Positions 7,673 to 33,586 are shown, counted from the stretch's first letter. The stretch is DNA of 35,600 bases from an uncultured Fastidiosipila sp. (GCA_964548975.1 CAZJTS010000001.1:1-35600); one strand, 5' to 3'. Notes: generated by a model from the letters alone, not told the origin. Numbers and translations are program-made.

Positions 7673-7747
7673 TGGTGCCCCAGACAAGAATCGAACTCGT
7701 ATGTGCAGCTCCGGAAACTGCCGCCTTATCCATTAGGCCACTGGGGC
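7673..7747 (-). tRNA. tRNA-Arg(CCG): tRNA-Arg, anticodon CCG, CCA end encoded
   Basis: The reverse complement is GCCCCAGTGGCCTAATGGATAAGGCGGCAGTTTCCGGAGCTGCACATACGAGTTCGATTCTTGTCTGGGGCACCA (75 nt) and folds as a cloverleaf. The acceptor stem is GCCCCAG/CTGGGGC and the D arm is GCCT/AGGC. The anticodon stem is GCAGT/GCTGC with loop TTCCGGA (anticodon CCG). The T arm is ACGAG/CTTGT with loop TTCGATT. Confidence 0.95.
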
Positions 7748-21590: not shown

Positions 21591-21619
21591 TTGACCGCAT
21601 TCTACCTCGGGCTTACAAT
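21591..21619 (+). promoter_or_regulatory. Sigma-A-type promoter driving the cobalamin riboswitch operon
   Basis: TTGACC (21591-21596) - 17 nt - TACAAT (21614-21619). The predicted start site at about 21626-21627 falls immediately before the riboswitch P1 strand. Confidence 0.65.
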
Positions 21620-21627
21620 AAGCCCAT

Positions 21628-21804
21628 GGATTCGGGTGCTGTCCTTTAGCGGCGATTCGCTAGCGGACAGATAATAGGGAATACAGTGAAATTCTGTAAC
21701 AGCCCCCGCTACTGTGATCATGAAGTACTCACATAGGCCACTGTTCTAACGAATGGGAAGGCGTGACGTACCAGGCATGAAGTCAGGAAACCTGCCCTCG
21801 ATCC
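21628..21804 (+). promoter_or_regulatory. Cobalamin (B12) riboswitch
   Basis: The conserved core is read directly: AATAGGGAATACAGTGAAATTCTGTAACAGCCCCCGCTACTGTGA (21672-21716). Also present are AGGCCACTGTTCTAACGAATGGGAAGG (21735-21761) and the B12 box AGTCAGGAAACCTGCC (21781-21796). P1 can form between GGATTCGGG (21628-21636) and CCCTCGATCC (21795-21804). A P2-like hairpin is CTGTCC..TAGCG..CGCTA..GGACAG. Block-by-block it resembles the E. coli btuB leader as I recall it. Confidence 0.92.
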
Positions 21805-21864
21805 ACGATCAGTTATCTTTCGGTGGGAAAGATGGGCTCGAAGTTTCTCGATAGCACTTCGTAT

Positions 21865-21897
21865 CCCTTCCCGCCACCCGCAGGAGGGGATTTTTTT
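21865..21897 (+). terminator. Riboswitch expression platform: intrinsic terminator that also sequesters the SD
   Basis: CCCTTCC (21865-21871) pairs with GGAGGGG (21883-21889), giving 7 bp including one G-U, followed by A plus T7 (21891-21897). The 3' arm is the SD AGGAGG of the first gene. The upstream GGTGGGAAAG (21822-21831) can pair with the CCCTTCCCGCCACC region as an antiterminator. Confidence 0.7.
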
Positions 21898-22807
21898 GTT
21901 AGAGATATTACGATTATTTTGGCCAAAGAAAAGGTCTCGCGCCAAGCTCGGGCTCGCCCTTGCCCTCGCGCTGACTGTTTCTGCCTGTAGCCCCAATCCG
22001 CCGGCTGAAACAGCTGCGCCGATAGCAGAGACCACACAAGCGACGGAAACTTCGCAGGTTGTTGAAACAACGGATCCGATCGTCTCTGAAACAACTTCGG
22101 AAACTGAGGAGAGCTCCGCACCGACAGAGCCTTCAACAACCGTGAGCGAAGAGACGACGACGACCGAGGCCACGACTACTACACAGACGACGTCGACGAC
22201 CACAACTTCAACAACGCCGGCGCAAACTACGACCCGTGCGACCACAACCCGGCCGACAACTCAGCCACCGACGACTGTAACTACGACTACTTCGACGAGC
22301 ACTACAACCACAACCACTGAACCCACGACAACTCAGGCACCCACAACCACTGAACCCACGACAACCGCAGCACCCACCACAACCCCCGCGCCCACCACTG
22401 TCGAGCCCACGCCGGTTCCGGAAGTGGTCTATTTCACCATCGATTACACCGAATTGCTGAATGCGAGTGATCGGGTGAAGGAGATGCTCCGGGAGAAGCG
22501 CGTCTGGGACCTCATCCCGTCCGTGGGTTTGGAGCCCAACGCCTCGCCGATCAATTGGCAGGACGGCGATACCGTGCTGAGCTTGTCGATCCGGGCTTTT
22601 GATGCCTACCGAATTCCCCGGGAGCTGCAGAATTTCGGTTTCGGGACGTACATCCGGAGCATCAAAATGATCGAAGAAAAGGTCGCCGGCCCTTCGTCCG
22701 GCTGGACCTACGAAATCAACGGGGTGCAAATCCCGCTCGCATCAGATAGCAAACCCCTCCAGCCGGGTGACAGTCTGGTTTGGAAATATGTCGTACCCGA
22801 AAATTAA
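21896..22807 (+). CDS. Lipoprotein with a long Thr-rich stalk and a C-terminal DUF4430 (transcobalamin-like) domain
   Basis: TTG start, 8 nt after SD AGGAGG. The signal peptide carries the lipobox LTVSAC (Cys31, nt 21986-21988). A stalk of about 145 aa dominated by Thr/Pro/Glu/Ala follows. The C-terminal domain carries FGTYIRSI...GPSSGWTYEINGVQIPLASDSKPLQPGDSLVWKY, the characteristic DUF4430 pattern. Confidence 0.8.
   Translation: MLEILRLFWPKKRSRAKLGLALALALTVSACSPNPPAETAAPIAETTQATETSQVVETTDPIVSETTSETEESSAPTEPSTTVSEETTTTEATTTTQTTSTTTTSTTPAQTTTRATTTRPTTQPPTTVTTTTSTSTTTTTTEPTTTQAPTTTEPTTTAAPTTTPAPTTVEPTPVPEVVYFTIDYTELLNASDRVKEMLREKRVWDLIPSVGLEPNASPINWQDGDTVLSLSIRAFDAYRIPRELQNFGFGTYIRSIKMIEEKVAGPSSGWTYEINGVQIPLASDSKPLQPGDSLVWKYVVPEN
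22314..22379 (+). repeat. Imperfect 33-nt tandem duplication inside the Thr-rich stalk coding region
   Basis: Unit 1 (22314-22346) is CCACTGAACCCACGACAACTCAGGCACCCACAA. Unit 2 (22347-22379) is CCACTGAACCCACGACAACCGCAGCACCCACCA. By my count 28 of 33 nt are identical. The units encode TEPTTTQAPTT and TEPTTTAAPTT. Confidence 0.8.
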
Positions 22808-22828: not shown

Positions 22829-25141
22829 ATGCGAAGCAAACTTGGTGTCCGGCTCAGTAGCTGGCTGTTGGTGACTCTCTTTTGGCTCTTGCCGATAGCG
22901 CAGAGCCAGGCGACAGAAGTGCCGCAAACGGCTGCAGAAACGGTGACGATCCGGATTCTGAACGAAGTTGTTGAAGAAAGTGAAGGTGCTGCCTGGTCAG
23001 GCGCATTCCTCGAGGCGACGGAAGTCCCTTGGGCGGAAGATCTGACGGCCAAAGCCGCCATAGAGCAGCTCGCTCAACAGGAAGAATTTACCGTAGACTT
23101 CCAGGACACGGCTTCCGGCTCTATGCTTACGGGCGTGGCCGGTCTCGATTCCACTCTGGTCCCCGAAGGCGCCACCTACTCCGGCTGGGGTTATTCCGTA
23201 AATGACCTGACTCCTTTCGAAGCGCTGGATCAGAAAGTGCTGGCGGCCGGCGATCAGCTGACCTTCTACTTTCAGACCGGTTGGCCCTCAATACAGGTTT
23301 CAATCGCGAACACCACTTATCCTGATGGTGCCTGGACCGGCGAACTGGCCAAAGGCGACTTCTACTACAGCCTCCCTGAGCATAAGGACGTCACGGCGCG
23401 CGAAGTGCTGGACACTTTCGCAAGCTACAACCAGGTCACTTTGAACTATGAATCCTCGTCCTGGGGCGATTATCTGACCACAGTGAACGGGCTCTCGACC
23501 ACGGAAGAGATTCCGGGCGCCGAGTGGGCAAGCTGGATGGCCAAAGTCAACGGCGCGGACAGCACTGAAGGTCTGGACACCCAGATCTTGAATCCGGGTG
23601 ACAGCCTCGAGCTCTATTTCCATGTGAATTGGTTGCCTGAGCCGACGGAGCCGACCGAAGCACCGACCGATCCTACCGAAACCAGCCCGGACGACTTCGC
23701 TGAAGCGGAACTCAAGGAACTTTCTGCTTTTTGGCCCGAATTCCGGGGTTCTTCTGATCATATGGCGATCCGGGAAGCCGGCGCCCCTCGCACAGCTGAG
23801 GAGACAGAGGTTCTCTGGTCCAAAACCTTCGGTGATCCGGCGAGCTGGTCGGGATTCTCGGGTCAACCCATTATCGTCAATAGCGAGCTCTGGCTCATTC
23901 ACGGCACGACGCTGGAAGCGCTGAATCCTGAAACCGGTGAAAGCCTGCGGACCAAATCCCTGCCCGTGGGCCAGGGCTATGCCAGCACGGCACCGCTCTA
24001 CGCGGAAGGTAGGCTCTTCCTGCCTTTGGACGGCGGCACGGTGCTCGCGCTGAACGCTGAGACCTGGGAGACTTTGTGGCAGTATCAGGATCCGAATCGG
24101 GGTCAGGCGCAGTCGCCTTTGGCCTATCGGGATGGCATCCTCTACGCTTCCTTCATGAACAGCGGCTCTGAAGGTGCTCTGGTGGCGCTCAATGTCGCCG
24201 ACGGCAGCGCGAGTTGGCGTCAGACCCAGCCCGGCGGTTTCTACTGGGCGGGTATGCAGGTGACAGCCGATTACCTCTTGAGCGGCAGCGAGTCGGGCGA
24301 CATTCTGGTGTATGATCGCCTGACCGGGACTTTGTCCGACAGTCTGGCCACCGGCGCCCCCGTAAGAAGTAGCATTATTACAAACGGGTCAAACTACTAT
24401 GTTGTCAATAGCCAGGGCGAGCTCGTGCGCTGGCAACTGTCCGCTGCGGGCAAGATCGAGCAGGTCAACAGACTCTCTCTCGGTAGCCCGGTCACGGCAA
24501 CGCCGGTAATTCTGGACGGCAAGCTCTATGTCGGTTCCACCCAGGTGTATTATGTGATCGATGCGACAACTTTGGCCAAAATCCGGGAAATCACCCTCCC
24601 CGGCTATGCCCAGGGCTCCCCGCTCGTCGTCACCGGAAATGGAGTGACCTTCTATACCACCGTAAACAGCTTGCCCGGTGCACTTTATGCGTTCGGGCCT
24701 GAGAGCGTTGAAGCCGAGACCCTCTTCCTGCCCGAAGCGGAGGGCTTCGCGGTCTCGTCGCCGATCCTGAGCCAGAGTGGTGCGATCATTTACCGAAATG
24801 ACTCAGGGACAGTCTTTGCGCTGCGTCGGTCAGTTACTGCGCCGAGTGAGACAACAGAGACTACGACGACACAAGCGCCGACGGAAACGACAACAGTTGC
24901 AACGACAACAACCACCGTTGCAACAACACTTGCAACAACTACCAACCAAACTCAAGCAACAAACACCCCAACCGCAGAGCCCACGACCACACCTGAGTCT
25001 GTCCCTGCAACCGGTGAGGGCAATGTTGGTTGGTTGATTGGCATCAGTTTACTGGTCGTTGCAGCCATACTCGTGGTGGTTATGCTGATCGTCCGCCGCA
25101 AGGATCTGGACCGCACGGAGGATCCGCGGGAGGATGAATGA
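22829..25141 (+). CDS. Cell-wall-anchored surface protein: signal peptide, 2x DUF4430, PQQ-like beta-propeller, Thr-rich stalk and LPXTG-type (VPATG) sorting signal
   Basis: The signal peptide is MRSKLGVRLSSWLLVTLFWLLPIAQSQA. Two DUF4430-like modules end in SGWGYSVNDLTPFEALDQKVLAAGDQLTFYF and WASWMAKVNGADSTEGLDTQILNPGDSLELYF. A PT linker follows. Repeated propeller blades of the form G.L.ALN..TGE..W include TLEALNPETGESL, TVLALNAETWETLW, ALVALNVADGSASW and ILVYDRLTGTL. The Thr-rich stalk is TETTTTQAPTETTTVATTTTTVATTLATTT. VPATGE (25001-25018) is followed by a hydrophobic helix and the RRKD tail. Confidence 0.8.
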   Translation: MRSKLGVRLSSWLLVTLFWLLPIAQSQATEVPQTAAETVTIRILNEVVEESEGAAWSGAFLEATEVPWAEDLTAKAAIEQLAQQEEFTVDFQDTASGSMLTGVAGLDSTLVPEGATYSGWGYSVNDLTPFEALDQKVLAAGDQLTFYFQTGWPSIQVSIANTTYPDGAWTGELAKGDFYYSLPEHKDVTAREVLDTFASYNQVTLNYESSSWGDYLTTVNGLSTTEEIPGAEWASWMAKVNGADSTEGLDTQILNPGDSLELYFHVNWLPEPTEPTEAPTDPTETSPDDFAEAELKELSAFWPEFRGSSDHMAIREAGAPRTAEETEVLWSKTFGDPASWSGFSGQPIIVNSELWLIHGTTLEALNPETGESLRTKSLPVGQGYASTAPLYAEGRLFLPLDGGTVLALNAETWETLWQYQDPNRGQAQSPLAYRDGILYASFMNSGSEGALVALNVADGSASWRQTQPGGFYWAGMQVTADYLLSGSESGDILVYDRLTGTLSDSLATGAPVRSSIITNGSNYYVVNSQGELVRWQLSAAGKIEQVNRLSLGSPVTATPVILDGKLYVGSTQVYYVIDATTLAKIREITLPGYAQGSPLVVTGNGVTFYTTVNSLPGALYAFGPESVEAETLFLPEAEGFAVSSPILSQSGAIIYRNDSGTVFALRRSVTAPSETTETTTTQAPTETTTVATTTTTVATTLATTTNQTQATNTPTAEPTTTPESVPATGEGNVGWLIGISLLVVAAILVVVMLIVRRKDLDRTEDPREDE

Positions 25142-26025
25142 CGGATAGTTTTGCCAGACTGCACCCGGCCGGACAATTCGTCTATTATGCGATTGTCTTG
25201 GGTCTAAGTATGGTGTTGAGGCACCCGGCGACGGTTCTCATAGCGTGGCTGGGTGTCTGTTTGGCGCTATTGCCGCATATCGATGAGGGCAAGCGCTGGC
25301 GTACTTTTTTGTTACCATTCTTCTTTGCTATTCCGACAACCATTCTCAATGCGCTCTTTCGCCATTACGGCGTTCACGTTCTCTGGACCTTCCCGTCCGG
25401 CAACTGGCTGACGCTGGAGTCGATTCTGGACGGTGCCCAGGCCGGCCTCCGCCTCGGGGTCGTGATGCTCTGGTTCATTCATATGTATAAGTCGCTGGAA
25501 ACCGACCGGATTCTCTACCTCTTCTCACCGTTTCCGGTGTTTTCGTTGCTGCTGACCCTGACTCTGGGCTATCTGCCCCGCTTCTCTCGCGAAGCCGAGC
25601 AACTGGCCGCGGTCCAGAAAGTAGCGGACGGCGAAACGACGGCCCCACTCAAAGTGCGTTTCCGTCGACAGGCGGCGCTTTTGGCCTCGCTCAGCGGCTG
25701 GGCGTTGGAGAGCTCGATCGTCACAGCGGATGCCATGCAGGCCAGAGGTCTGGGGATCAGCGGCCGCAAAACCCGCTATCAGCTATACCGCTGGAGTGGC
25801 CGAGATAGCCGTTTCATGGGGATCGCGCTCGTGCTGACCGCTACAACGATCTGGCTCACGAGCCGGGGGCACCTTGATGCGGCCTTTCACCCCTTTCTCT
25901 ACCTGCCGCGCTGGAACAGCGGCGATCTTTTGGTGTTTATTCTGAGCAGTCTGCTCTTCTGTTTCGCATTTCTGATCAATCTGGGAGGGACCTTACGCTG
26001 GCATTACTCGCAACAGAACATCTGA
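25138..26025 (+). CDS. ecfT: ECF transporter transmembrane (T) component, EcfT/CbiQ family
   Basis: Polytopic membrane protein with cytoplasmic coupling-helix motifs (LPRFSREAEQL, ADAMQARGLG, the latter an Ala-Arg-Gly motif). Its ATG overlaps the upstream stop (ATGA at 25138-25141). It is followed by the ECF ATPase. Confidence 0.8.
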   Translation: MTDSFARLHPAGQFVYYAIVLGLSMVLRHPATVLIAWLGVCLALLPHIDEGKRWRTFLLPFFFAIPTTILNALFRHYGVHVLWTFPSGNWLTLESILDGAQAGLRLGVVMLWFIHMYKSLETDRILYLFSPFPVFSLLLTLTLGYLPRFSREAEQLAAVQKVADGETTAPLKVRFRRQAALLASLSGWALESSIVTADAMQARGLGISGRKTRYQLYRWSGRDSRFMGIALVLTATTIWLTSRGHLDAAFHPFLYLPRWNSGDLLVFILSSLLFCFAFLINLGGTLRWHYSQQNI

Positions 26026-27644
26026 CATTCGCTTACCCCGAGCAGCCCCCGCTCTGGCAAGACCTGACCTTCGAACTCCCTCGAGGCAGTTTCACCCTGC
26101 TCGCCGGCAGTGGCGGCAGCGGGAAGTCGACCCTGCTGAGGCACTTGATCCACAAGCTTGAACCCCACGGGCGCAAATCAGGCAAGATTCTTTTCGAAGG
26201 CACAAACTTAGCAGAAGTCCCTGCTGCAGACAGAGTACGCACGATCGCGTTCGTCATGCAAAATCCCGACGACCAGATAGTCTCGGACAGCGTTTGGCAT
26301 GAACTGGCTTTTGGCCTCGAGCAGCAGGGCATTGCTCCGGCAGAGATGCGCCTTCGGATCGCTGAAATGGCGAACTTCTTCGGCATGCAGACCTGGTTCA
26401 CCAGGAAATGCCGCGAGCTCTCCGGTGGCCAGAAGCAACTGCTGAATCTGGCTTCGGTACTTGTTTTGAAACCCGAGCTCCTGATCCTTGACGAGCCCTG
26501 CGCCCAGCTCGACCCGATAGCAGCGGACGAATTCGTCCACATGCTGCAACGTGTCAATCGCGAGCTCGGCGTCACCATTGTCCTGACCGACCACCGCCAG
26601 CAGCTCATCCTGCCCCTCGCAGACCGGGTGCTGCTCTTGGCGAACGGCAGCTTGCGAACTTTCCCTTCCGCGAAGGCTTACGCGAGCTTCTTGTTGGAGA
26701 CAAACTCGGCTTTGGCCAAAGCCCTGCCCGCCGCGGCCCGCATCAGCTATGTCGTGAATCCCGCCAGGCTGACCCTGGAACTCCGCACCGTTCGAGAATT
26801 GCTCAGAGAAGCATTTGCTAAAGCGCCTTGGGAAACCGAGGACCTCACTGAAACGACGCATGAGCCGGCAATCCTGGGCCATCTAAAAGAACTAAGCTTC
26901 GCCTACGGCAAGAACGCGCCCCTGGTGTTGGACCGCCTGTCACTGGCTATTCCTCGTCAGCGGATCTTGGCGATCCTGGGCGGGAACGGCAGCGGCAAGT
27001 CCACACTGATGCACACCATCGCCGGCCTGAACCGGGTACAGAGCGGCAAAATCCGCTGGACGAATGGCCGCCCGCGTATAGCGCTATTGCCGCAGAACGC
27101 CCGACTGCTGTTCACCGAGGAGACCGTGCTCGCCCAACTTGAGGCGGTCAGAGCGGCGCAGTCCTCGGAGGAACGCGCCAGAGTTCAGGACCTCCTCGCG
27201 ATCGACTCTGCCGAAGAATTACTGGACCGCCTCGGTCTTAAGGAACGTATGAATTACCACCCCGCCGACCTATCCGGCGGCGAGTTGCAGCGGGCTGCAC
27301 TGGCGGTGACGCTTTTACAAGGGGCGGAACTCCTGCTGCTGGACGAGCCGAGCAAAGGCCTGGATGCCGAAGCGGCCGCCCAATTGGCCGAGATCTTACA
27401 TCAGCTCTGCGAGCGCGGCATCACGATCGTCTTCGTGTCTCACGACCTGGATTTCTGTGCGGAACATGCCGACAGCTGTGCGCTGCTTTTCCAGGGAGAT
27501 ATCGTTGCGCTGGCTGTGCCTCGGCAGTTTTTCAGCGGCCATTATTTCTATACCACGGATGCTTCGAGAATCGCCCAGGGCTTCCTCGACGGCCAAATCA
27601 CGGTAGAGGAGGTCTGTGCCGCATGGCAGAACCGACACAGCTGA
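25998..27644 (+). CDS. Fused tandem ECF ATPase (EcfA-EcfA', YkoD-like duplicated NBD); the start codon is non-canonical and uncertain
   Basis: There are two NBDs. NBD1 has Walker A GSGGSGKST (26110-26136), signature LSGGQKQ and Walker B LLILDEP. NBD2 has GGNGSGKST, LSGGELQ and LLLLDEP. The track start (TTG 26145) lies downstream of the first Walker A. Between the in-frame stop at 25875-25877 and 26145 there is no ATG, GTG or TTG. The candidates are CTG 25998 (SD GGGAGG at 25983-25988) and CTG 26022 (CTGA overlap with the ecfT stop). Confidence 0.75.
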   Translation: MALLATEHLTFAYPEQPPLWQDLTFELPRGSFTLLAGSGGSGKSTLLRHLIHKLEPHGRKSGKILFEGTNLAEVPAADRVRTIAFVMQNPDDQIVSDSVWHELAFGLEQQGIAPAEMRLRIAEMANFFGMQTWFTRKCRELSGGQKQLLNLASVLVLKPELLILDEPCAQLDPIAADEFVHMLQRVNRELGVTIVLTDHRQQLILPLADRVLLLANGSLRTFPSAKAYASFLLETNSALAKALPAAARISYVVNPARLTLELRTVRELLREAFAKAPWETEDLTETTHEPAILGHLKELSFAYGKNAPLVLDRLSLAIPRQRILAILGGNGSGKSTLMHTIAGLNRVQSGKIRWTNGRPRIALLPQNARLLFTEETVLAQLEAVRAAQSSEERARVQDLLAIDSAEELLDRLGLKERMNYHPADLSGGELQRAALAVTLLQGAELLLLDEPSKGLDAEAAAQLAEILHQLCERGITIVFVSHDLDFCAEHADSCALLFQGDIVALAVPRQFFSGHYFYTTDASRIAQGFLDGQITVEEVCAAWQNRHS

Positions 27645-28363
27645 ATCGCTACGGCGTCCCGGTCCTCATCGGTCTGATTGTGACAACGTTGGTCTTGTGG
27701 TGGCGCTTCTTCCCGGAGCAGTACTTCCTGGCGATCACGCTCCTGCTGGGGGAATGTCTGCTTTTGTGGATCGTTTACCTGGAGAAAATCCGCCCGCAGG
27801 CGCGGGAGATCGCCCTGATGGCGGCATTGGCGACCCTGGGAATTGCAGGGCGGGCCCTGTTCTTCTTCGTTCCCCAGGTTAAGCCGACCGCAGCCATTGT
27901 CCTGATCAGCGGGCTGGTGCTCGGGCACGTGCCGGGCTTCACGGTCGGCTTGCTGACGATGTTCCTGTCGAACTTTCTCTTTGGCCAATCGATCAACACG
28001 CCCTTCCAGATGCTCGGCATGGGGCTGGTCGGCCTGATCGCCGGGCTCCTGGCCGGAAGGCGGACGCTTTCCGCTCTACAAACCGCAATTCTCGGCTTTA
28101 TCCTGACGTTTTTCGTCTACGGCCTGGCGGTCGATACCGGCAGTGTCCTCTTCCTCGCGCGCTGGCAGGGTGCGGTCGGGGTGTGGCCGGTCTATCTGGC
28201 GGGCATACCTTTCAATCTGGTGCATGCCGGAGCCACCGCGGTCTTCGCCCTTTTCCTCTACCCGTTCCTGACCCGGCAACTCAAACGCATCTGCCGGAAG
28301 TACGGGCTTTTCAGTCAGCGCAGTAGGAATACTGACCCAGAGCCCTCAGTACTGGAGCAATGA
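27623..28363 (+). CDS. ECF transporter S (substrate-capture) component-like membrane protein; corrinoid specificity is inferred from context only
   Basis: 246-aa all-helical membrane protein with S-component-like segments (REIALMAALATLGIAGRALFFFVPQVKPTAAIVLISGLVLGHVPGFTVGLLTMFLSNFLFG). It overlaps the 3' end of the ATPase gene by 22 nt. SD GAGGAGG at 27606-27612. Confidence 0.6.
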   Translation: MAEPTQLNRYGVPVLIGLIVTTLVLWWRFFPEQYFLAITLLLGECLLLWIVYLEKIRPQAREIALMAALATLGIAGRALFFFVPQVKPTAAIVLISGLVLGHVPGFTVGLLTMFLSNFLFGQSINTPFQMLGMGLVGLIAGLLAGRRTLSALQTAILGFILTFFVYGLAVDTGSVLFLARWQGAVGVWPVYLAGIPFNLVHAGATAVFALFLYPFLTRQLKRICRKYGLFSQRSRNTDPEPSVLEQ

Positions 28364-28428: not shown

Positions 28429-29376
28429 ATGGATCCACAACAGATTAAAACCGCAATTGACAAGATCCGCCGCAATGTCCAGAGTGTCGTGATCGGCCAG
28501 AATAAGGCTATCGAGCTTCTTATCGTCGCTCTGGTGAGCCGCGGACATGTACTGCTGGAGGACGTTCCCGGTATCGGTAAGACCACGTTGGCCTCGGCTT
28601 TGGCCAGATCATTGAATCTCGACTTCGGCCGTATCCAGTTCACCCCGGACGTTATGCCCTCCGACATTACCGGATTCAATATGTATAACCCCAAGGTGGG
28701 GGAATTCACCTTCCACCCCGGCGCGATCATGGCAAATCTCGTGCTGGCCGATGAGATCAACCGTTCCTCACCGAAAACCCAGTCCTCACTGCTCGAAGCG
28801 ATGCAGGACCGCCAGGTCACGGTGGACGGTGTCTCTTACAAACTCCCTGAACCCTTCATGGTCGTTGCGACCCAGAATGCGGTCGAGCAGATCGGCACCT
28901 ATCCCCTGCCCGAGGCGCAGCTGGACCGTTTCATGATCAAGTCGAATCTGCGCTATCCCTCCGCCGCTGAGGAGGTCGAGATTTACCAGATGCATGCCGG
29001 GCACTCGCCTTTGGCCGACATGGATGCCGTGATCTCCGCCAGCGAAGTCGTCAAGCTCCAGGAAGAAGCGATCGGCATCTATGTAGCGCCCGCCCTCTAC
29101 GATTACGTGGCGAAACTGGCCCAGGAAACCCGCCGTCACAAGCAGGTTCAGCTCGGCGTCAGTCCGCGTGGTGCCTTGATGCTTGTCCAGGCGGCCAAAG
29201 GCCGGGCCCTCATCGAAGGCCGCGACTACGTGTTGCCCGATGACATTCACTACCTGGCGCCTTACTGTATGGCCCACCGAATGATCCTCCATAGCGACAG
29301 CGAACTGGCCGGGGCATCAACCCTGCAGGTCATCGACCAGATTATCAAGAGCACGCCCGTACCGCGTCAGTCCTGA
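28429..29376 (+). CDS. MoxR-family AAA+ ATPase
   Basis: Walker A EDVPGIGKTTLA, Walker B LVLADEINRSSPKTQSSLLEAMQDRQVTVDG, and VVATQN sensor region. The size (315 aa) and layout are typical of MoxR (AAA_3) proteins. Confidence 0.9.
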   Translation: MDPQQIKTAIDKIRRNVQSVVIGQNKAIELLIVALVSRGHVLLEDVPGIGKTTLASALARSLNLDFGRIQFTPDVMPSDITGFNMYNPKVGEFTFHPGAIMANLVLADEINRSSPKTQSSLLEAMQDRQVTVDGVSYKLPEPFMVVATQNAVEQIGTYPLPEAQLDRFMIKSNLRYPSAAEEVEIYQMHAGHSPLADMDAVISASEVVKLQEEAIGIYVAPALYDYVAKLAQETRRHKQVQLGVSPRGALMLVQAAKGRALIEGRDYVLPDDIHYLAPYCMAHRMILHSDSELAGASTLQVIDQIIKSTPVPRQS

Positions 29377-29393
29377 GTAGATAAGGTACCGGC

Positions 29394-30905
29394 ATGAGTG
29401 GACGTTTCCTCCTCTATCTGATCCTGGTAGGGATCACTTACGCTATTTACAGTTTCACAGCTTATTCCCCTATGCTCTTTTTGCTGATTCTGTTGCTGGC
29501 GTTGCCTGTCTGCTCATTTATTCTTCTCTTTATCAGCCGCTTTTTCGTGCGTGTTGAGTTGACTTCGGCCAAAACCCAGGTCTACCGTCTGGAGCCCTTC
29601 GCACTGGCCCTCCGCATTCAGAATCGCGGCCCCTTTTTCTTTCCTTTGGTCAGAATCGAATTCAATCTCCCCCGCCGGGACGACCATCTGTTGCCTGAGA
29701 AAGACTGGCATGCCGGTATCGAAACCGCATCTGAGGATGTCCATTTCTTCAATGAATATCTGGGCTGGGAGGGTGAAGCACAGGCGGAACCGGATCTGGA
29801 GAAGAACCCGGAGAGTCGGGCCAGATCCGTGGATCGCCGAAAAACCTGGCGCCTCTACCCCACCCCCCACATGACTTATATACGCAAAATTCTGACCGCA
29901 GTAGTGCCGCAACGAAGTACCAGTTTCCAGGAAATCGTCATGTCTGCGCGTAATAAGGGCATTTATGCTGTCGGCACAGACTCGATCCTGCTCCAGGACC
30001 TCTTCGGTTTCTTCTATCTGCCTTTACCGAGAGCTTCACGCGTCGACAAGGCCAGCGGCATAGTCAATACGCTGGTCGAGATCGAGGTCCTGCCCAATCC
30101 TTTCCGTTGGCAATCGCCGGGTGCCGGTAAGCTCCGGGCTCCTGAAGAAGTGCTGATGAATACCCAGAATCTGAAAGTCTCTAATGAAGTGGATTCACTG
30201 GCCAATGTCCGTGACTTCGTCCCGGGCGACCGCATCAAGCAGATCCACTGGAAACTTTCCGCCCGCGGCGGCAAATGGCTCTCCCGTGAGTTCGAAGACC
30301 CCCGCCAGGGCGGTATTCTTTTCGTCATTGACCCGAAACTGCCTGATGATTGTATAAAACCCTTAAACTACAGCAATGAAGTGCCTGAGATCATGGCCTC
30401 GACGATGCGGGCTTTGTCCCGTACCGAAGGGCCGTTGAATCTCTTGATGGGCGACGACTACTTCACAGCGCCCGGCGAAGGACTTGAGCCCATTAGCTTC
30501 TACAGGGCGATGATGCTGTGGAAACCCCAGATCCGTCACGACGATTTCCGCCTCCGTTCTGCAGAAACAAAGCTGGCCTGTCAGGTGATGCAAAACCGCA
30601 TGGTCCTCTCCGATATGCTCCGCAAAGAAACCAAGAATAAACGCTACCGGGCGATCGTCATTATCACGGCCCGGATGAGCGAGCCCCTATCCAGCGAGAT
30701 CCGCCGCGTCCAGAAGCTCGGTAGCCAGGTCTTGCTGATCTTCCTACATAATGAAACCAAAGCGTATTTAGATGAGATGCTGAGGCCCTTAGCCGTAGCG
30801 AAAATCCGTCTCTTCCCCACGCGCCTTCAGTCCCTCATTCCTTATGCTGAGGTAGAAAAACATCCGGATCTTGCCGTCAGACCCGGCAGCAGGAGGAGCG
30901 GCTGA
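29394..30905 (+). CDS. DUF58-domain protein with two N-terminal TM helices
   Basis: The family-defining block VRDFVPGDRIKQIHWKLSARGGKWLSREFE is present. It sits in the canonical position right after MoxR. Confidence 0.85.
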   Translation: MSGRFLLYLILVGITYAIYSFTAYSPMLFLLILLLALPVCSFILLFISRFFVRVELTSAKTQVYRLEPFALALRIQNRGPFFFPLVRIEFNLPRRDDHLLPEKDWHAGIETASEDVHFFNEYLGWEGEAQAEPDLEKNPESRARSVDRRKTWRLYPTPHMTYIRKILTAVVPQRSTSFQEIVMSARNKGIYAVGTDSILLQDLFGFFYLPLPRASRVDKASGIVNTLVEIEVLPNPFRWQSPGAGKLRAPEEVLMNTQNLKVSNEVDSLANVRDFVPGDRIKQIHWKLSARGGKWLSREFEDPRQGGILFVIDPKLPDDCIKPLNYSNEVPEIMASTMRALSRTEGPLNLLMGDDYFTAPGEGLEPISFYRAMMLWKPQIRHDDFRLRSAETKLACQVMQNRMVLSDMLRKETKNKRYRAIVIITARMSEPLSSEIRRVQKLGSQVLLIFLHNETKAYLDEMLRPLAVAKIRLFPTRLQSLIPYAEVEKHPDLAVRPGSRRSG

Positions 30906-33547
30906 TGAGAGAAAGAACCTTCATGCCCAGAATCCGTAATCAAGTGCTTTTATTCGTAATGAGCTATATCTTTGCCTTCAGCTTAGCCATGCTCGCTACG
31001 GAAGTCTTCCGCCTGCCTGTCACAGCCGGTCAGAATCTGCTGGGCACCTTTGTCACGCTCTTCATCCTGACCGTTCTCTTCTTCAATCCGACCACGACCA
31101 TAGTGACATTTATCGTCGCAGGTCTGGGGGGACTGCTCTTACTCCTCACCCCGCTTCGCGAAAACGAGTGGGTCACCGAGCGGCTTGAGCCTTTAGGCGA
31201 ACGCCTGACTTTGGCCCTGGCACAGGGACAACGTTTCTTAGAGGAAGGTTTCTCCTACTTCAATTCCTTCTCAACTTCACTCACAGAAAGAGAGCAGGAC
31301 GCCTTTAAACTCCTTGCCTCTCTGATCCTCCTCATTACCACCATCCTGACTTTCCTCATGATCCAGAAACTCAGGACCTATTGGATCCCCCTCTTCCTGG
31401 TCATACTTCTGATTCCCTTAGCTATTTACTCGGGCAGCAATTTCGCGCTCGTCTGGCTGATCCCGCTGGCCCTCGTCAGCATCGCGATGATTCTCCTGAG
31501 CTCCGGTCACCTACTGGATCTTTTGCGCAAAAAGAACGGCATCAAGCACCTGCTGGCCGCAGGCGGTCAAATGGGCGTTGCAGTCATCCTGGCACTGGTC
31601 GTTGCATTCCTTGCAACGGGTTTCCTGAACTATCAGAAGATCTATTCTCCCTATTGGCAGGGTGTGGTCGATGACCTCGTTACGCTTCTACCCGAGTCAT
31701 TTCAGGCCCCGCTCTCCATCAGTCCCTTCTCCATCGGTGACGATGGCTATTATCCGCTTACCAACCGTTTAGGCGGTCCCGTTGTCCTCGAAGACAACGA
31801 GGTTGCAAGTGTCGTTGGTAACGTACCGGGTCTATTGAAAGTCCAGAGCTCAGACTTTTACGATGGTCAACGTTGGCAACGGCTTGTCAACAACCCCAAT
31901 TTCCGTTACTCATCGCCTTTCAACGGCGGTGCCGAAACCCTGGTTTTCAATCCGCTTGAACCGCCCGAGTTCTTCGATCTGCTGGATGGCGCTTCGGCTG
32001 AAGATGTCTACAATAACTATGACTATACCCTGACCCCCTTACGTCAGGGATCGCAGTTACTCTTCTTGAACGGCACCCCGACGAATCTGGTCTCTTCGCG
32101 AGAAGAAGCCATGCTCTTCTACTTCAATCAGGCAGGTGCCGTGTACGCACGAACAGTCTTCGATAACCAGCACGCTTACAGTGTCGAAAGCTATGATATC
32201 AATCCCAACCGTCTCGGCTTCGCCGCTACACCGGGCAGCGTATCTTTGTCAGAGCTGGACCGCGCAGCTGCGGAATTCCAAGCTGCCGGACTGACACTGC
32301 CGAACCACGACAATGCCTACGATAACTACCTGCAGGTTCCCGGCACCTCCGCCTATCAGCCCGGTGGGGTGGTATATGAAACCGCTCTTGAGCTGACCGA
32401 TGGTCTCCCGGGAAATTACGCAAAAGCAAAGTCGCTCCTCAGTTACTTCACCGAGAATCCCGAATTCTCTTACACACTGGAACCGACTGTACCGCCGGCC
32501 GATACGGATTTCGTCGCTTATTTCTTGAACACGAAGATCGGCTACTGTACCTATTACGCCACCGGCCTCACCATGCTGGCCCGCTTGAGCGGCATCCCGG
32601 CGCGTTACGTCGAAGGCTACGCCCTTACCTCAGAGAACTACGAAGAGTTGAGTCTGGGCGAAGAATCGATGCTCAACTCCGAAAATGCGCACGCCTGGAC
32701 CGAAGTCTATCTCGACGGCTTAGGTTGGGTCCCCCTCGATCCGACCCCGGGCGGCGTCCTCGGTGAAGGTTTTGAAGAACCCGAACCTACCCCGCCGGTC
32801 GAGCCTACAACTACCCCGACTACTACGGAAGAACCGACTACCACAACCGAAGAACCGACAACATCAACCAGTGAGGACGAGTTCGAGCCGACCACTTCAC
32901 CGACCACAATCGAACCGACCACCGCGGCTAAAGAGGATCGTCCTCCCAGTGAAATACTACGTATCCTGGGTAGAATTCTACTGGTCCTACTTCTGCTTGC
33001 CCTGCTGGTCTTCCTCGCCTGGTTCTACTATAAGAAGCGCGTCGAGCACTTCCAGAATATCCATAACCGCACCTGGCTTGAGGCCAAAATCCCGGACGGC
33101 AAGAAGCTTGCTAATTTCTACTGGAAAGAGCTGCTCAGTATCCAGAGACTCTCCTCCGAATACCTGCCGGGCACCAGCCTGACCGAGCACGAAATTGCCG
33201 ACACTTTGGACGCTGCCCAGCAAGAGAGTCCCGTAGAGCCTGAGGTTGTTGAACCGGCCCCTGAGACCGACCCGACTGAAGATCCGGAAGCGATCTATCG
33301 TCCGGAGCATCAGCCGCCGGTGAAGCCGGAATCCGCAGCCCCGGAAAGCAGCACTGATCTCGGCTTCTGGACACCTTTGGCCGGTATCGTGGCTGAAGCT
33401 CGTTATCGCGGTCAGGACATGCCGATCGAGCGACTGGCGCCTTTGGCCGACGCTTTCGACCGGGCGGAGACAGACCTCAGAAAAGAGCTCGGTGAAGCAG
33501 GCTACATCAGGAAGCGACTGCTCCCACCGACACAAGGTAAAATCTAG
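30905..33547 (+). CDS. Transglutaminase-like membrane protein (TgpA-like architecture)
   Basis: The ATG overlaps the DUF58 stop (TGATG at 30903-30907). A multi-TM N-terminus is followed by an extracytoplasmic domain. That domain carries a transglutaminase-core Cys/His/Asp triad context (GYCTYYATG, NAHAWTEVY, WVPLDPTP). A PT-rich linker, one further TM helix and an acidic cytoplasmic tail complete the protein. Confidence 0.85.
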   Translation: MRERTFMPRIRNQVLLFVMSYIFAFSLAMLATEVFRLPVTAGQNLLGTFVTLFILTVLFFNPTTTIVTFIVAGLGGLLLLLTPLRENEWVTERLEPLGERLTLALAQGQRFLEEGFSYFNSFSTSLTEREQDAFKLLASLILLITTILTFLMIQKLRTYWIPLFLVILLIPLAIYSGSNFALVWLIPLALVSIAMILLSSGHLLDLLRKKNGIKHLLAAGGQMGVAVILALVVAFLATGFLNYQKIYSPYWQGVVDDLVTLLPESFQAPLSISPFSIGDDGYYPLTNRLGGPVVLEDNEVASVVGNVPGLLKVQSSDFYDGQRWQRLVNNPNFRYSSPFNGGAETLVFNPLEPPEFFDLLDGASAEDVYNNYDYTLTPLRQGSQLLFLNGTPTNLVSSREEAMLFYFNQAGAVYARTVFDNQHAYSVESYDINPNRLGFAATPGSVSLSELDRAAAEFQAAGLTLPNHDNAYDNYLQVPGTSAYQPGGVVYETALELTDGLPGNYAKAKSLLSYFTENPEFSYTLEPTVPPADTDFVAYFLNTKIGYCTYYATGLTMLARLSGIPARYVEGYALTSENYEELSLGEESMLNSENAHAWTEVYLDGLGWVPLDPTPGGVLGEGFEEPEPTPPVEPTTTPTTTEEPTTTTEEPTTSTSEDEFEPTTSPTTIEPTTAAKEDRPPSEILRILGRILLVLLLLALLVFLAWFYYKKRVEHFQNIHNRTWLEAKIPDGKKLANFYWKELLSIQRLSSEYLPGTSLTEHEIADTLDAAQQESPVEPEVVEPAPETDPTEDPEAIYRPEHQPPVKPESAAPESSTDLGFWTPLAGIVAEARYRGQDMPIERLAPLADAFDRAETDLRKELGEAGYIRKRLLPPTQGKI

Positions 33548-33555
33548 TCAACCTG

Positions 33556-33586
33556 GGGCTTGTCCACTAAGACAAGCCCTTTATTT
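33556..33586 (+). terminator. Rho-independent terminator after the transglutaminase gene
   Basis: GGGCTTGTC (33556-33564) pairs with GACAAGCCC (33571-33579) across the loop CACTAA. It is followed by TTTATTT. Confidence 0.8.

What the first reader, a model, noticed from the sequence alone, without database searches (positions are those of the whole stretch)
22829..25141. Unusual architecture: tandem transcobalamin-like domains fused to a beta-propeller and anchored by a VPATG sorting signal
Read from the translation, the order is as follows.
- A signal peptide ending AQSQA.
- DUF4430 module 1 (GWGYSVND...GDQLTFYF).
- DUF4430 module 2 (WMAKVNG...GDSLELYF).
- A PT linker.
- About 370 aa of PQQ/BamB-like propeller blades.
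- A Thr-rich stalk.
- VPATGE, a hydrophobic helix and an RRKD tail.
The sorting motif deviates from canonical LPXTG (V at position 1), which implies a matching sortase specificity. A beta-propeller combined with corrinoid-binding-like domains recalls Bacteroides BtuG. The resemblance looks convergent rather than homologous.
Basis: partly seen in the sequence, partly recalled or inferred. Interest (0 to 1): 0.75.

Follow-up and report, generated by a model that had tools for sequence, protein, structure and literature searches.

The report
Surface B12-capture protein of ECF importer
This gene encodes a cell-surface protein with two transcobalamin-like domains and an eight-bladed propeller, sitting in a vitamin-B12-riboswitch-controlled operon next to a B12-type ECF importer, so it most likely captures corrinoids outside a Gram-positive cell; the design is widespread and was predicted in 2007, but nobody has tested it.

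Summary
ORF 22829..25141 (770 aa) encodes, in order:
- a signal peptide;
- two DUF4430 modules;
- a Pro/Thr linker;
- an eight-bladed PQQ_2/BamB-like propeller;
- a Thr-rich stalk;
- VPATG, a hydrophobic helix and RRKD.

HMM, profile-versus-PDB and fold searches all confirm the domain assignments. The modules match the cobalamin-binding beta domain of transcobalamin, haptocorrin and intrinsic factor.

- A cobalamin riboswitch (21617..21814, 104 bits) with a terminator hairpin heads the operon.
- The operon encodes a DUF4430 lipoprotein, this protein, EcfT, a fused ECF ATPase and an S component.
- The S component's only solved relative is the B12 transporter subunit CbrT.
- The same propeller + DUF4430 + ECF set recurs, fused or split, behind B12 riboswitches in other Clostridia.

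The architecture is not unusual. Of the 156 proteins examined (the 150 best representatives plus earlier hits), 87 carry DUF4430 modules. Burroughs et al. (2007) described the fusion and predicted B12 scavenging.

VPATG is a relaxed xPxTG(D/E) signal: orthologues have LPKTG, VPETG and LVPTG. No sortase gene lies in the window.

The propeller is not a BtuG homologue; the resemblance is functional analogy only.

Verdict: new member of a known, uncharacterised kind, and a good experimental candidate.

The parts
21591..21619 (+). Promoter-like site TTGACC-17 nt-TACAAT, ending where the riboswitch begins
   Evidence: Consensus scan, 10 of 12 matches, the best in the scanned region. This is a pattern match only.
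21617..21814 (+). Cobalamin riboswitch aptamer (RF00174)
   Evidence: 104.3 bits against a gathering score of 31.5, E 2.7e-25, full-length model match. The same element lies upstream of the orthologous operons in L001, L003, L004, L009, L010, L011 and L012 at 100-107 bits.
21863..21897 (+). Expression platform: hairpin AUCCCUUCC..GGAGGGGAU followed by a U7 tract. Its 3' arm contains the Shine-Dalgarno GGAGGGG (21883..21889) of the first gene, and the U tract runs into the TTG start.
   Evidence: Read from the sequence. The hairpin is present in both the minimum-free-energy and centroid folds. Its role as an OFF-switch terminator and Shine-Dalgarno sequestrator is inferred.
21896..22807 (+). 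Lipoprotein: lipobox TVSA|C, a Thr/Pro-rich tether of about 170 aa, and one C-terminal DUF4430 domain
   Evidence: Pfam DUF4430 40.2 bits, residues 224-298. The lipobox and tether are read from the translation. The L010 orthologue has a conserved domain and a variable tether.
22829..22912 (+). Signal peptide of the 770-aa protein (residues 1-28, ...AQSQA|TE)
   Evidence: Read from the translation: basic n-region, hydrophobic core and an A-x-A-like end. No signal-peptide predictor was available.
22940..23278 (+). DUF4430 / transcobalamin-beta-like module 1 (residues 38-150)
23288..23626 (+). DUF4430 / transcobalamin-beta-like module 2 (residues 154-266). The model joins it to module 1 through one continuous 19-residue strand.
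   Evidence: Pfam best stretch is residues 189-265.
23627..23773 (+). Acidic Pro/Thr/Glu linker (residues 267-315)
   Evidence: Translation. pLDDT is below 50 over residues 269-314.
23774..24832 (+). Eight-bladed PQQ_2/BamB-like beta-propeller (residues 316-668)
   Evidence: Pfam PQQ_2 51.9 bits. Foldseek matches to eight-bladed Cake8/Tako8, BamB and YxaL. PDB sequence hits are tetrathionate hydrolase and BamB.
24833..25000 (+). Thr-rich stalk (residues 669-724)
   Evidence: 28 Thr in the 58 residues 668-725. pLDDT is below 50.
25001..25141 (+). Sorting-signal-like tail: VPATG-E, a hydrophobic helix and RRKD, with an acidic end; includes the stop codon
   Evidence: Translation. TIGR01167 LPXTG_anchor scores 15.7 bits against a cut-off of 15.9. 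The orthologues score 21.9, 24.5 and 33.4 bits, and one scores 11.3.
25138..26025 (+). ECF transporter T component (EcfT/CbiQ-like). Its ATG overlaps the stop codon of the surface-protein gene (ATGA).
   Evidence: PDB hit to EcfT of L. delbrueckii, E 0.0021. The L001 orthologue carries Pfam CbiQ. The overlap is read from the coordinates.
25998..27644 (+). Fused double ECF ATPase (A-A'), apparently starting at CTG 25998, 8 nt after GGGAGG
   Evidence: Two ABC_tran domains; ECF_ATPase_1 and ECF_ATPase_2 score 239 and 229 bits. The translation from 25998 aligns from residue 1 with the L001 orthologue at 60% identity. DNA read.
27623..28363 (+). ECF S component, CbrT-like
   Evidence: Pfam ECF-ribofla_trS 38.3 bits. 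The only PDB sequence hit at E<=10 is 6FNP chain A, E 8e-8. 6FNP is the ECF-CbrT vitamin B12 transporter (PMC5997447).

Best explanation
The 770-aa protein is an extracytoplasmic corrinoid-capture accessory of a dedicated ECF-CbrT-type vitamin B12 importer in a Gram-positive Clostridia bacterium. Its nearest relatives are MAGs labelled Fastidiosipila, Clostridiaceae and Oscillospiraceae.

Proposed mechanism:
1. When intracellular (adenosyl)cobalamin is low, the riboswitch lets transcription and translation proceed through the operon.
2. The protein is exported. It is held at the cell surface on its Thr-rich stalk, either cross-linked to peptidoglycan by a sortase at VPAT|G or retained by its C-terminal helix.
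3. Its two transcobalamin-beta-like modules bind cobalamin, cobamides or cobinamide.
4. A second DUF4430 domain sits on a roughly 170-residue flexible lipoprotein tether. It shuttles the ligand across the wall zone to the membrane-embedded S component.
5. The EcfT plus A-A' ATPase module powers import.
6. The eight-bladed propeller is a non-enzymatic partner. It may be a docking platform for the DUF4430 modules, the lipoprotein or the S component, or a second ligand-holding face. This would parallel the alpha domain of transcobalamin or the propellers of Bacteroides BtuG, BtuGH and BtuK.

Shown here: the domain identities, the riboswitch, the operon content, and the recurrence of the propeller + DUF4430 + ECF set. 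Inferred: ligand binding, the relay order, the role of the propeller, and wall linkage.
For: - The cobalamin riboswitch lies directly upstream with a terminator/Shine-Dalgarno hairpin. It is conserved in five independent orthologous lineages.
- The surface-protein gene overlaps the EcfT start (ATGA). It is followed by the fused ATPase and an S component whose only solved relative is CbrT. ECF-CbrT transports cobalamin and cobinamide, and hemin does not compete (PMC5997447).
- Both modules are transcobalamin-beta-like by HMM, profile and fold. The isolated human transcobalamin beta domain binds Cbl and Cbi on its own (PMC5599065).
- There is Rosetta-stone plus neighbourhood evidence. In L006/L007 a stand-alone propeller, ECF T-AA'-S and a separate DUF4430 gene follow an AdoCbl-II riboswitch. 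In L015 a large propeller protein, a DUF4430 protein and the ECF genes follow two cobalamin riboswitches. In L005 an alpha-toroid (Prenyltrans-like) protein, a DUF4430 protein and a DUF4430-propeller fusion are adjacent.
- Of the 156 proteins examined from this propeller subfamily, 87 carry DUF4430 modules.
- Burroughs et al. 2007 reached the same B12-scavenging prediction for this clade from its operons with CbiO/CbiQ and the lack of B12 biosynthesis genes.
Against: - No bacterial DUF4430 protein has been shown to bind a corrinoid. Only 8 papers in the library mention the domain, and none is functional for bacteria. 3U7Z was deposited as a 'putative metal binding protein'.
- The related L. 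sakei Lsa1836-1840 system was argued to import heme (bioRxiv 864751).
- ECF-CbrT works in proteoliposomes without any accessory protein, so the accessories are not mechanistically required.
- The orthologous operon in L002 has no detectable riboswitch, even at E<=1.
- The propeller has no assigned ligand.
- The full-length model is only moderately confident (pLDDT 63, 4 sequences). It gives no reliable inter-domain geometry.
Confidence: 0.7

Rival explanations
1. Same locus, different cargo. The system scavenges heme or another tetrapyrrole or metal chelate rather than corrinoids, as was proposed for the transcobalamin-like Lsa1839/1840 plus ECF operon of L. sakei.
For: The L. sakei study linked a homologous gene set to heme uptake. 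An ECF heme importer exists in S. lugdunensis (title and abstract). 3U7Z was deposited as a metal-binding protein.
Against: Cobalamin riboswitches control this operon and most of its relatives. The S component's only solved relative is CbrT, for which hemin did not compete. The modules match the Cbl-binding domain of three animal B12 carriers.
Confidence: 0.07
2. The protein binds corrinoids but does not feed the transporter. It would act as a surface sink or store that withholds cobamides from competitors. Alternatively, it would strip B12 from host or microbial carrier proteins, with the propeller as the carrier-binding part.
For: - Three DUF4430 domains per operon and very acidic ectodomains (pI about 4-4.5).
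- Bacteroides BtuG-family binders have femtomolar to picomolar affinities that suit sequestration (review).
- The family uses many kinds of anchor, including SLH and dockerin, which place it far from the membrane.
Against: The gene is tightly coupled translationally to EcfT (ATGA overlap). The ECF genes are consistently adjacent to it. Sequestration and delivery are not mutually exclusive.
Confidence: 0.13
3. The C-terminus is not a sortase signal. The protein would stay in the membrane as a C-terminally anchored type I protein, with the Thr-rich stalk as a spacer. VPATG would be incidental.
For: - TIGR01167 scores 15.7 bits, just under its 15.9 cut-off, and one orthologue scores 11.3.
- No sortase gene is in the window.
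- Of the 156 family members examined, 41 end in a hydrophobic helix plus basic residues with no xxxTG motif.
- The second motif position is not conserved: ITQTG and LVPTG occur in orthologues.
Against: - T-G-E is invariant at the same alignment position in the four aligned orthologues. The tails read in L010-L012 show the same TGE followed by a helix and RR(K/R).
- The closest orthologues carry LPKTG (33.4 bits) and VPATG/VPETG (21.9 and 24.5 bits) above the cut-off.
- In the wider family, 43 of 156 members have xxxTG + helix + basic tail, and 27 of those have D or E after the G. This matches the (S/P)PXTG-D substrates of C. difficile SrtB.
Confidence: 0.3
4. It is a generic adhesin or enzyme (BamB-like assembly factor or PQQ dehydrogenase) unrelated to B12, and its position in the operon is fortuitous.
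For: Public annotations call family members 'outer membrane protein assembly factor BamB' or 'PQQ-binding-like beta-propeller repeat protein'. Burroughs et al. suggested that accessory domains might tether these proteins to polysaccharide.
Against: - BamB equivalog models score far below their cut-offs (37.5 against 285; 26.7 against 423).
- The PQQ dehydrogenase models also fall short (26.7 against 480; Pfam PQQ 23.9 against 26.7).
- The relatives are Clostridia MAGs, which are typically Gram-positive and would have no outer membrane for a BamB.
- The fusion to DUF4430 and the riboswitch/ECF context recur across distant lineages.
Confidence: 0.03

Closest known systems
Bacterial transcobalamin-like SLBB (DUF4430, PF14478) surface proteins in CbiO/CbiQ operons, including the beta-propeller fusion noted in Clostridium (Burroughs, Balaji, Iyer and Aravind 2007, PMC1796856)
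   Same: [quoted passage not shown]
   Different: - That work was purely computational and did not cite the riboswitch (no occurrence of the word).
- It did not specify the tandem modules or the sortase-type tail.
- It suggested that the accessory domains tether the protein to polysaccharide, rather than taking part in ligand handling.
Transcobalamin / haptocorrin / intrinsic factor, beta domain
   Same: The fold and a detectable sequence profile match. The isolated beta domain binds Cbl and Cbi.
   Different: - The animal carriers pair one beta domain with an alpha6/alpha6 toroid that sandwiches the ligand.
- This operon has no alpha-toroid protein. It has three beta-like domains and a propeller instead.
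- An alpha-toroid gene does occur in the relative L005.
ECF-CbrT vitamin B12 transporter of Lactobacillus delbrueckii (PDB 6FNP; Santos et al. 2018)
   Same: The S component is the only solved relative (E 8e-8). EcfT and two ATPase domains are present. The cargo class is implied by the riboswitch.
   Different: - L. delbrueckii CbrT uses a shared ECF module and has no extracytoplasmic accessory protein.
- Here the T and A-A' genes are dedicated and lie in the operon, the ATPases are fused, and two surface DUF4430 proteins are co-encoded.
Bacteroides thetaiotaomicron extracellular cobamide relay: BtuG, BtuGH, BtuK, BtuH, BtuJ (review PMC13616437)
   Same: Several surface-exposed B12 binders are encoded next to the transporter. 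BtuGH fuses a small B12-binding domain N-terminal to a beta-propeller, which is the same domain logic as here.
   Different: - BtuG, BtuGH and BtuK propellers are seven-bladed. This one is a PQQ_2-type eight-bladed fold with no BtuG sequence or top fold hits.
- The small domain there is BtuH, not DUF4430.
- Those proteins are outer-membrane lipoproteins that cap a TonB-dependent BtuB. Here there is no outer membrane, the tail is C-terminal and sortase-like, and the transporter is of the ECF type.
Clostridial (S/P)PXTG sortase substrates (C. difficile SrtB; PMC4155245)
   Same: An xPxTG motif followed by an acidic residue, a hydrophobic helix and a basic tail, with a non-Leu residue at position 1.
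   Different: Val at position 1 was not among the tested C. difficile motifs. The cognate sortase of this organism is unknown.

Membership tests
DUF4430 / transcobalamin-like SLBB clade (PF14478) | HMM match above the curated cut-off | tested here: met
   52.8 bits against 23.8, two stretches. An independent 30-module profile hits haptocorrin, transcobalamin, intrinsic factor and 3U7Z.
DUF4430 / transcobalamin-like SLBB clade (PF14478) | Beta-grasp fold of the transcobalamin beta domain | tested here: met
   AF2 model of the two modules has pLDDT 84. The top 18 Foldseek hits are the transcobalamin beta domain, transcobalamin, 3U7Z, haptocorrin and intrinsic factor (E from 8e-6 to 2e-4; TM-score on target 0.68-0.74).
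DUF4430 / transcobalamin-like SLBB clade (PF14478) | Binds a corrinoid | not testable with these tools
PQQ_2 / BamB-like eight-bladed beta-propeller (PF13360) | HMM match above the cut-off and an eight-bladed fold | tested here: met
   51.9 bits against 27.6. The best fold matches are eight-bladed Cake8/Tako8 (TM-score on target 0.86) and BamB/YxaL. About 30 strands lie between residues 326 and 667.
BamB (outer membrane protein assembly factor) proper | Equivalog-level match | tested here: not met
   TIGR03300 scores 37.5 against 285.2, and NF008351 scores 26.7 against 423.
BamB (outer membrane protein assembly factor) proper | Gram-negative BAM context | tested here: not met
   The relatives are Clostridia MAGs, which are typically Gram-positive, and the gene sits in an ECF transporter operon rather than a BAM context.
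PQQ-dependent dehydrogenase | Family-level match to the PQQ enzyme models | tested here: not met
   TIGR03075 scores 26.7 against 480. Pfam PQQ scores 23.9 against 26.7.
BtuG family (Bacteroidota surface B12 binder) | Seven-bladed propeller homologous to BtuG | tested here: not met
   The fold is eight-bladed PQQ-like. No BtuG chain appears among PDB sequence hits at E<=1 or in the top 50 fold hits. The seven-bladed definition comes from the review.
BtuG family (Bacteroidota surface B12 binder) | N-terminal lipoprotein that caps a TonB-dependent BtuB | tested here: not met
   The protein has a cleavable signal peptide ending AQSQA with no lipobox, a C-terminal anchor, and ECF neighbours rather than a BtuB.
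BtuG family (Bacteroidota surface B12 binder) | B12 bound on one propeller face | not testable with these tools
   No ligand modelling or binding assay was available.
Sortase-anchored (LPXTG-type) wall protein | N-terminal signal peptide | tested here: met
   Read from the translation. No signal-peptide predictor was available.
Sortase-anchored (LPXTG-type) wall protein | C-terminal hydrophobic segment and basic tail | tested here: met
   Read from the translation. AF2 places a helix at residues 733-761.
Sortase-anchored (LPXTG-type) wall protein | LPXTG-type pentapeptide recognised by the curated anchor model | tested here: inconclusive
   The motif is VPATG. TIGR01167 scores 15.7 against a cut-off of 15.9. 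The orthologues score 33.4 (LPKTG), 24.5 (VPETG), 21.9 (VPATG) and 11.3 (LVPTG).
Sortase-anchored (LPXTG-type) wall protein | Cognate sortase in the genome and covalent wall linkage | not testable with these tools
   No sortase domain occurs in any large ORF of the 35.6-kb window. The rest of the genome is not available.
ECF-CbrT-type B12 importer (operon level) | S component related to CbrT, plus EcfT and two ATPase domains | tested here: met
   6FNP chain A is the only PDB hit of the S component (E 8e-8). EcfT hit at E 0.0021. ECF_ATPase_1 and ECF_ATPase_2 score 239 and 229 bits over two ABC domains, below the equivalog cut-offs of 315 and 330 because the ATPases are fused and divergent.
ECF-CbrT-type B12 importer (operon level) | Regulation by cobalamin | tested here: met
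   RF00174 at 104 bits upstream, with a terminator hairpin. Ligand response itself was not tested.

The most novel reading that the evidence does not exclude
ECF transporters are textbook examples of importers that need no soluble binding protein. In Gram-positive Clostridia, this one may be fed by a wall-spanning relay. The steps would run from a surface-anchored (DUF4430)2-propeller protein, to a DUF4430 lipoprotein on a long tether, to CbrT. In this reading the eight-bladed propeller is itself a corrinoid-holding or hand-off lid that docks on the S component. It would then be a convergent counterpart of the seven-bladed BtuG/BtuK/BtuGH propellers of Bacteroides.
Probability: 0.2. Interest if true: 0.8.

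Novelty: new member of a known kind. Interest (0 to 1): 0.5.

Why it matters
Corrinoids are a contested resource in gut and digester communities. The surface capture machinery is well described only for Bacteroidota. A 2026 review states that extracellular capture in Gram-positive bacteria 'remains entirely uncharacterized'.

This locus is a compact and well-delimited candidate for that missing machinery. It contains a riboswitch, two surface proteins with three transcobalamin-like domains, a propeller and a dedicated CbrT-type ECF importer.

Testing it would answer three questions:
- whether bacterial DUF4430 domains really bind cobamides, and with what selectivity;
- what the ubiquitous fused propeller does;
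- whether ECF transporters can use extracytoplasmic accessory binders.

The work also corrects current annotations of family members, such as 'BamB' and 'PQQ-binding-like repeat protein'.

Tried and rejected
Searches that led nowhere:
- The single-protein scan of GTDB genomes found no relative.
- The six-sequence alignment A1 was too divergent to seed a scan. The four-sequence alignment A2 worked.
- The word-indexed homology search with the full protein returned only 9 hits. This falsely suggested rarity.
- The same tool with the two-module fragment returned nothing, not even the protein itself. The exhaustive HMM search corrected this.
- Single-sequence phmmer of the two modules against the PDB gave only noise. 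A 30-module profile was needed.
- A relaxed Rfam search of L002 found no riboswitch.
- Literature searches for a functional study of bacterial DUF4430, or of Gram-positive surface B12 binders, found none.

Readings considered and rejected:
- BtuG homology: wrong blade number and no sequence or top fold hits.
- A true BamB or a PQQ dehydrogenase: scores far below the cut-offs.
- A frameshifted ATPase pseudogene: the reading frame is open and aligns from a CTG at the orthologous start.
- Reading anything into the conserved loop motifs of the propeller: they follow the ordinary PQQ-repeat pattern.
- The antisense and alternative-frame ORFs across the Thr-rich regions: these are by-products of the repetitive ACN codons.


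Full report
**1. Observation**

ORF 22829..25141 (+) encodes 770 residues.
- signal peptide, residues 1-28, ending AQSQA;
- DUF4430 module 1, residues 38-150;
- module 2, residues 154-266;
- an acidic Pro/Thr/Glu linker, residues 267-315;
- a propeller, residues 316-668;
- a stalk with 28 Thr in 58 residues;
- VPATG followed by E, a hydrophobic helix and RRKD.

Pfam gives DUF4430 at 52.8 bits over two stretches (cut-off 23.8). It gives PQQ_2 at 51.9 bits (cut-off 27.6). All ectodomains are acidic (pI 4.0-4.5) and contain no cysteine.

**2. Module identities, tested independently**

DUF4430 modules:
- A profile of 30 DUF4430-like modules from this protein, its operon partner and family members hits haptocorrin (4KKI, E 2.8e-6). 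It also hits the human transcobalamin beta domain (5NO0, 6.4e-6), intrinsic factor and the R. gnavus DUF4430 structure 3U7Z.
- An AlphaFold2 model of the two modules has pLDDT 84 and pTM 0.70. One continuous strand bridges the modules.
- Its top 18 Foldseek PDB hits are exclusively transcobalamin, its beta domain, haptocorrin, intrinsic factor and 3U7Z. Only after these come tandem ubiquitin-like folds.

Propeller:
- The full-length model is weaker (pLDDT 63), but the propeller lies at 70-90.
- It matches eight-bladed propellers: Cake8/Tako8 (TM-score on target 0.86), BamB, Bacillus YxaL and tetrathionate hydrolase.
- It is not a real BamB or a PQQ dehydrogenase. The equivalog models score 37.5 against 285 and 26.7 against 480.

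**3. Context, which decides the function**

Upstream elements:
- Rfam finds a full-length cobalamin riboswitch at 21617..21814 (104 bits, E 2.7e-25).
- A promoter-like site precedes it at 21591..21619.
- A hairpin plus U7 follows at 21863..21897. Its 3' arm holds the Shine-Dalgarno sequence of the first gene.

The genes that follow:
- 21896..22807: a lipoprotein with lipobox VSAC, a Thr/Pro tether of about 170 residues, and one DUF4430 domain.
- 22829..25141: the 770-aa protein.
- 25138..26025: EcfT. Its ATG overlaps the preceding stop codon. It gives a PDB EcfT hit at E 0.0021, and its L001 orthologue carries Pfam CbiQ.
- 25998..27644: a fused double ECF ATPase.
- 27623..28363: an S component. 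Its only PDB hit at E<=10 is 6FNP chain A (E 8e-8). 6FNP is ECF-CbrT, the vitamin B12 and cobinamide transporter of L. delbrueckii, for which hemin does not compete (PMC5997447).

**4. Relatives**

The nearest homologues (37-49% identity) come from uncultured Clostridia. GTDB record titles name Fastidiosipila, Clostridiaceae and Oscillospiraceae.
- They keep the same operon.
- They keep the riboswitch in L001, L003, L004, L009, L010, L011 and L012.
- L002 does not have the riboswitch, even at E<=1.

More distant loci carry the same parts unfused:
- L006/L007: an AdoCbl-II riboswitch, a stand-alone propeller, ECF T-AA'-S and a separate DUF4430 gene.
- L015: two cobalamin riboswitches, a 1248-aa propeller protein, a DUF4430 protein and the ECF genes.
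- L005: an alpha-toroid (Prenyltrans-like) protein, a DUF4430 protein and a DUF4430-propeller fusion.
- L013: a riboswitch upstream of a dockerin-bearing propeller protein.

The fusion therefore reports a functional link among propeller, DUF4430 and the ECF importer.

**5. How common it is**

The first, word-indexed search suggested rarity, with only 9 hits. The exhaustive profile search corrected this.
- It finds 26,658 proteins at E<=0.001 and 1137 representatives at E<=1e-30.
- Of the 156 proteins held after that search, 87 contain one to four DUF4430-like modules by a locally built HMM.
- Pfam found both domains in 10 of 10 checked, with DUF4430 above its cut-off in 9.
- Anchors vary. Of the 156, 43 have xxxTG + helix + basic tail, 21 have SLH-like tails and 41 have a helix plus basic tail only. 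Dockerin also occurs.
- Public names are 'DUF4430 domain-containing protein', 'PQQ-binding-like beta-propeller repeat protein' or, wrongly, 'BamB'.

**6. Sorting signal**

- At the aligned position the orthologues carry LPKTG, VPATG (also in L010), VPETG, LVPTG/IVPTG and ITQTG. Each is followed by E, a helix and RR(K/R).
- The LPXTG_anchor model scores 15.7 bits here against a cut-off of 15.9. The orthologues score 33.4, 24.5, 21.9 and 11.3.
- In the wider family, position 1 is A, V, T, S, L, M or N. The residue after G is D or E in 27 of 43 cases.
- This matches the (S/P)PXTG-D substrates that C. difficile SrtB cleaves between T and G (PMC4155245).
- V at position 1 is therefore one value of a relaxed position, not a mark of a special sortase.
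- No sortase gene lies in the window, so wall linkage remains an inference. My estimate is about 0.65-0.7 that the protein is sortase-processed.

**7. Mechanism**

The best-supported reading is a riboswitch-controlled, low-B12-induced corrinoid acquisition system.
- The surface protein captures corrinoids with its transcobalamin-beta-like modules.
- The tethered lipoprotein domain relays them.
- The CbrT-like ECF transporter imports them.

The isolated human transcobalamin beta domain retains Cbl and binds Cbi without the alpha domain (PMC5599065). This makes stand-alone beta-like binders plausible.

The propeller's role is the least certain step. It is non-enzymatic by all tests. It is genetically tied to DUF4430 and the ECF genes even when encoded separately. 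It could be a docking scaffold or a second ligand face.

Evidence against the model:
- There are no binding data for any bacterial DUF4430 protein.
- A related L. sakei system was ascribed to heme.
- ECF-CbrT works without accessory proteins in vitro.
- L002 lacks the riboswitch.

**8. Comparison with known systems**

- Burroughs et al. 2007 defined the transcobalamin-like SLBB clade. They listed a beta-propeller fusion in Clostridium and noted paralogous extracellular SLBB proteins in operons with CbiO/CbiQ. They predicted scavenging of B12 or its precursors. This protein is a member of that predicted but untested kind.
- Functionally it parallels the Bacteroides relay. In BtuGH, a small B12-binding domain precedes a propeller.
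- It fails every BtuG membership feature that could be tested: blade number, sequence similarity, lipoprotein anchor and a BtuB partner.

**9. Verdict**

The corrinoid link and the convergence with BtuG hold. 'Unusual' and the sortase-specificity inference do not hold as stated.
- Novelty: new member of a known kind.
- Interest: 0.5. The locus is an excellent experimental entry point to Gram-positive extracellular corrinoid capture, which a 2026 review calls entirely uncharacterised. However, neither the architecture nor the predicted role is new.

Noticed in passing
window 25984..26000: The fused ECF ATPase gene has no ATG, GTG or TTG at the orthologous start. The open frame begins at CTG 25998, 8 nt after GGGAGG, and overlaps the EcfT gene by 28 nt, exactly as in L001, where the codon is TTG. 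The translation from 25998 aligns from residue 1 at 60% identity. This is either a rare CTG start or a base error. The mechanical ORF list starts the gene 49 codons too late, at 26145.
   Followed up: yes
window 28429..33580: MoxR-type AAA+ ATPase (28429..29376), a DUF58 protein (29394..30905) and a transglutaminase-like membrane protein (30905..33547) follow the S gene after a 65-nt gap. No terminator-like site appears until 33555..33580. The same trio follows the ECF genes in L001, L003/L004, L010, L011 and L012. A transglutaminase gene also sits next to the DUF4430 genes in L005. They may be co-transcribed under the B12 riboswitch. The reason is unknown.
   Followed up: partly
window 21896..22807: The first operon gene encodes a lipoprotein with a Thr/Pro-rich tether of about 170 residues before its single DUF4430 domain. 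Tether length and composition vary between orthologues while the domain is conserved (38% identity overall with L010). L003/L012 lack this gene altogether.
   Followed up: partly
L002 8958..9128: The orthologous operon of P0003 (40% identity, same upstream alpha-amylase synteny as the window) has only a 171-nt leader and no detectable cobalamin riboswitch, even at E<=1.
   Followed up: yes
L015 3986..4198 and 5207..5418: Two cobalamin riboswitches lie in one locus. The first precedes small ORFs (DUF2292 and HNH_repeat hits). The second precedes a 1248-aa Big_9/Cadherin-like/propeller protein, a 443-aa DUF4430 protein and the ECF T-AA'-S genes.
   Followed up: no
L013 2227..7339: In Candidatus Apopatocola equi a cobalamin riboswitch lies upstream of a 1244-aa PQQ_2 propeller protein that ends in a type I dockerin. 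This suggests cellulosome-style display of a member of this family.
   Followed up: no
L005 2756..6121: An alpha-alpha toroid (Prenyltrans/SQHop_cyclase-like) protein, a 200-aa DUF4430 protein and a DUF4430-propeller protein are adjacent. Both halves of a transcobalamin-like binder are thus present together with the propeller fusion.
   Followed up: partly
window 21718..22729 and 24777..25176, alternative frames: Several ORFs of 60-175 aa on the opposite strand or in other frames cover the Thr-rich coding stretches. They are by-products of the repetitive ACN-rich sequence, not genes.
   Followed up: no
window 7676..7747 (-): A tRNA gene (59 bits). Elsewhere in the window are a P-type cation ATPase, a YitT-family protein, a sulfatase-family protein, two ABC exporter genes, a Na/Pi cotransporter fused to PhoU domains, an M3-like peptidase, an SbcCD-like pair, an alpha-amylase and an aldo/keto reductase. 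ORF 132..1541 (469 aa) has no Pfam match.
   Followed up: no
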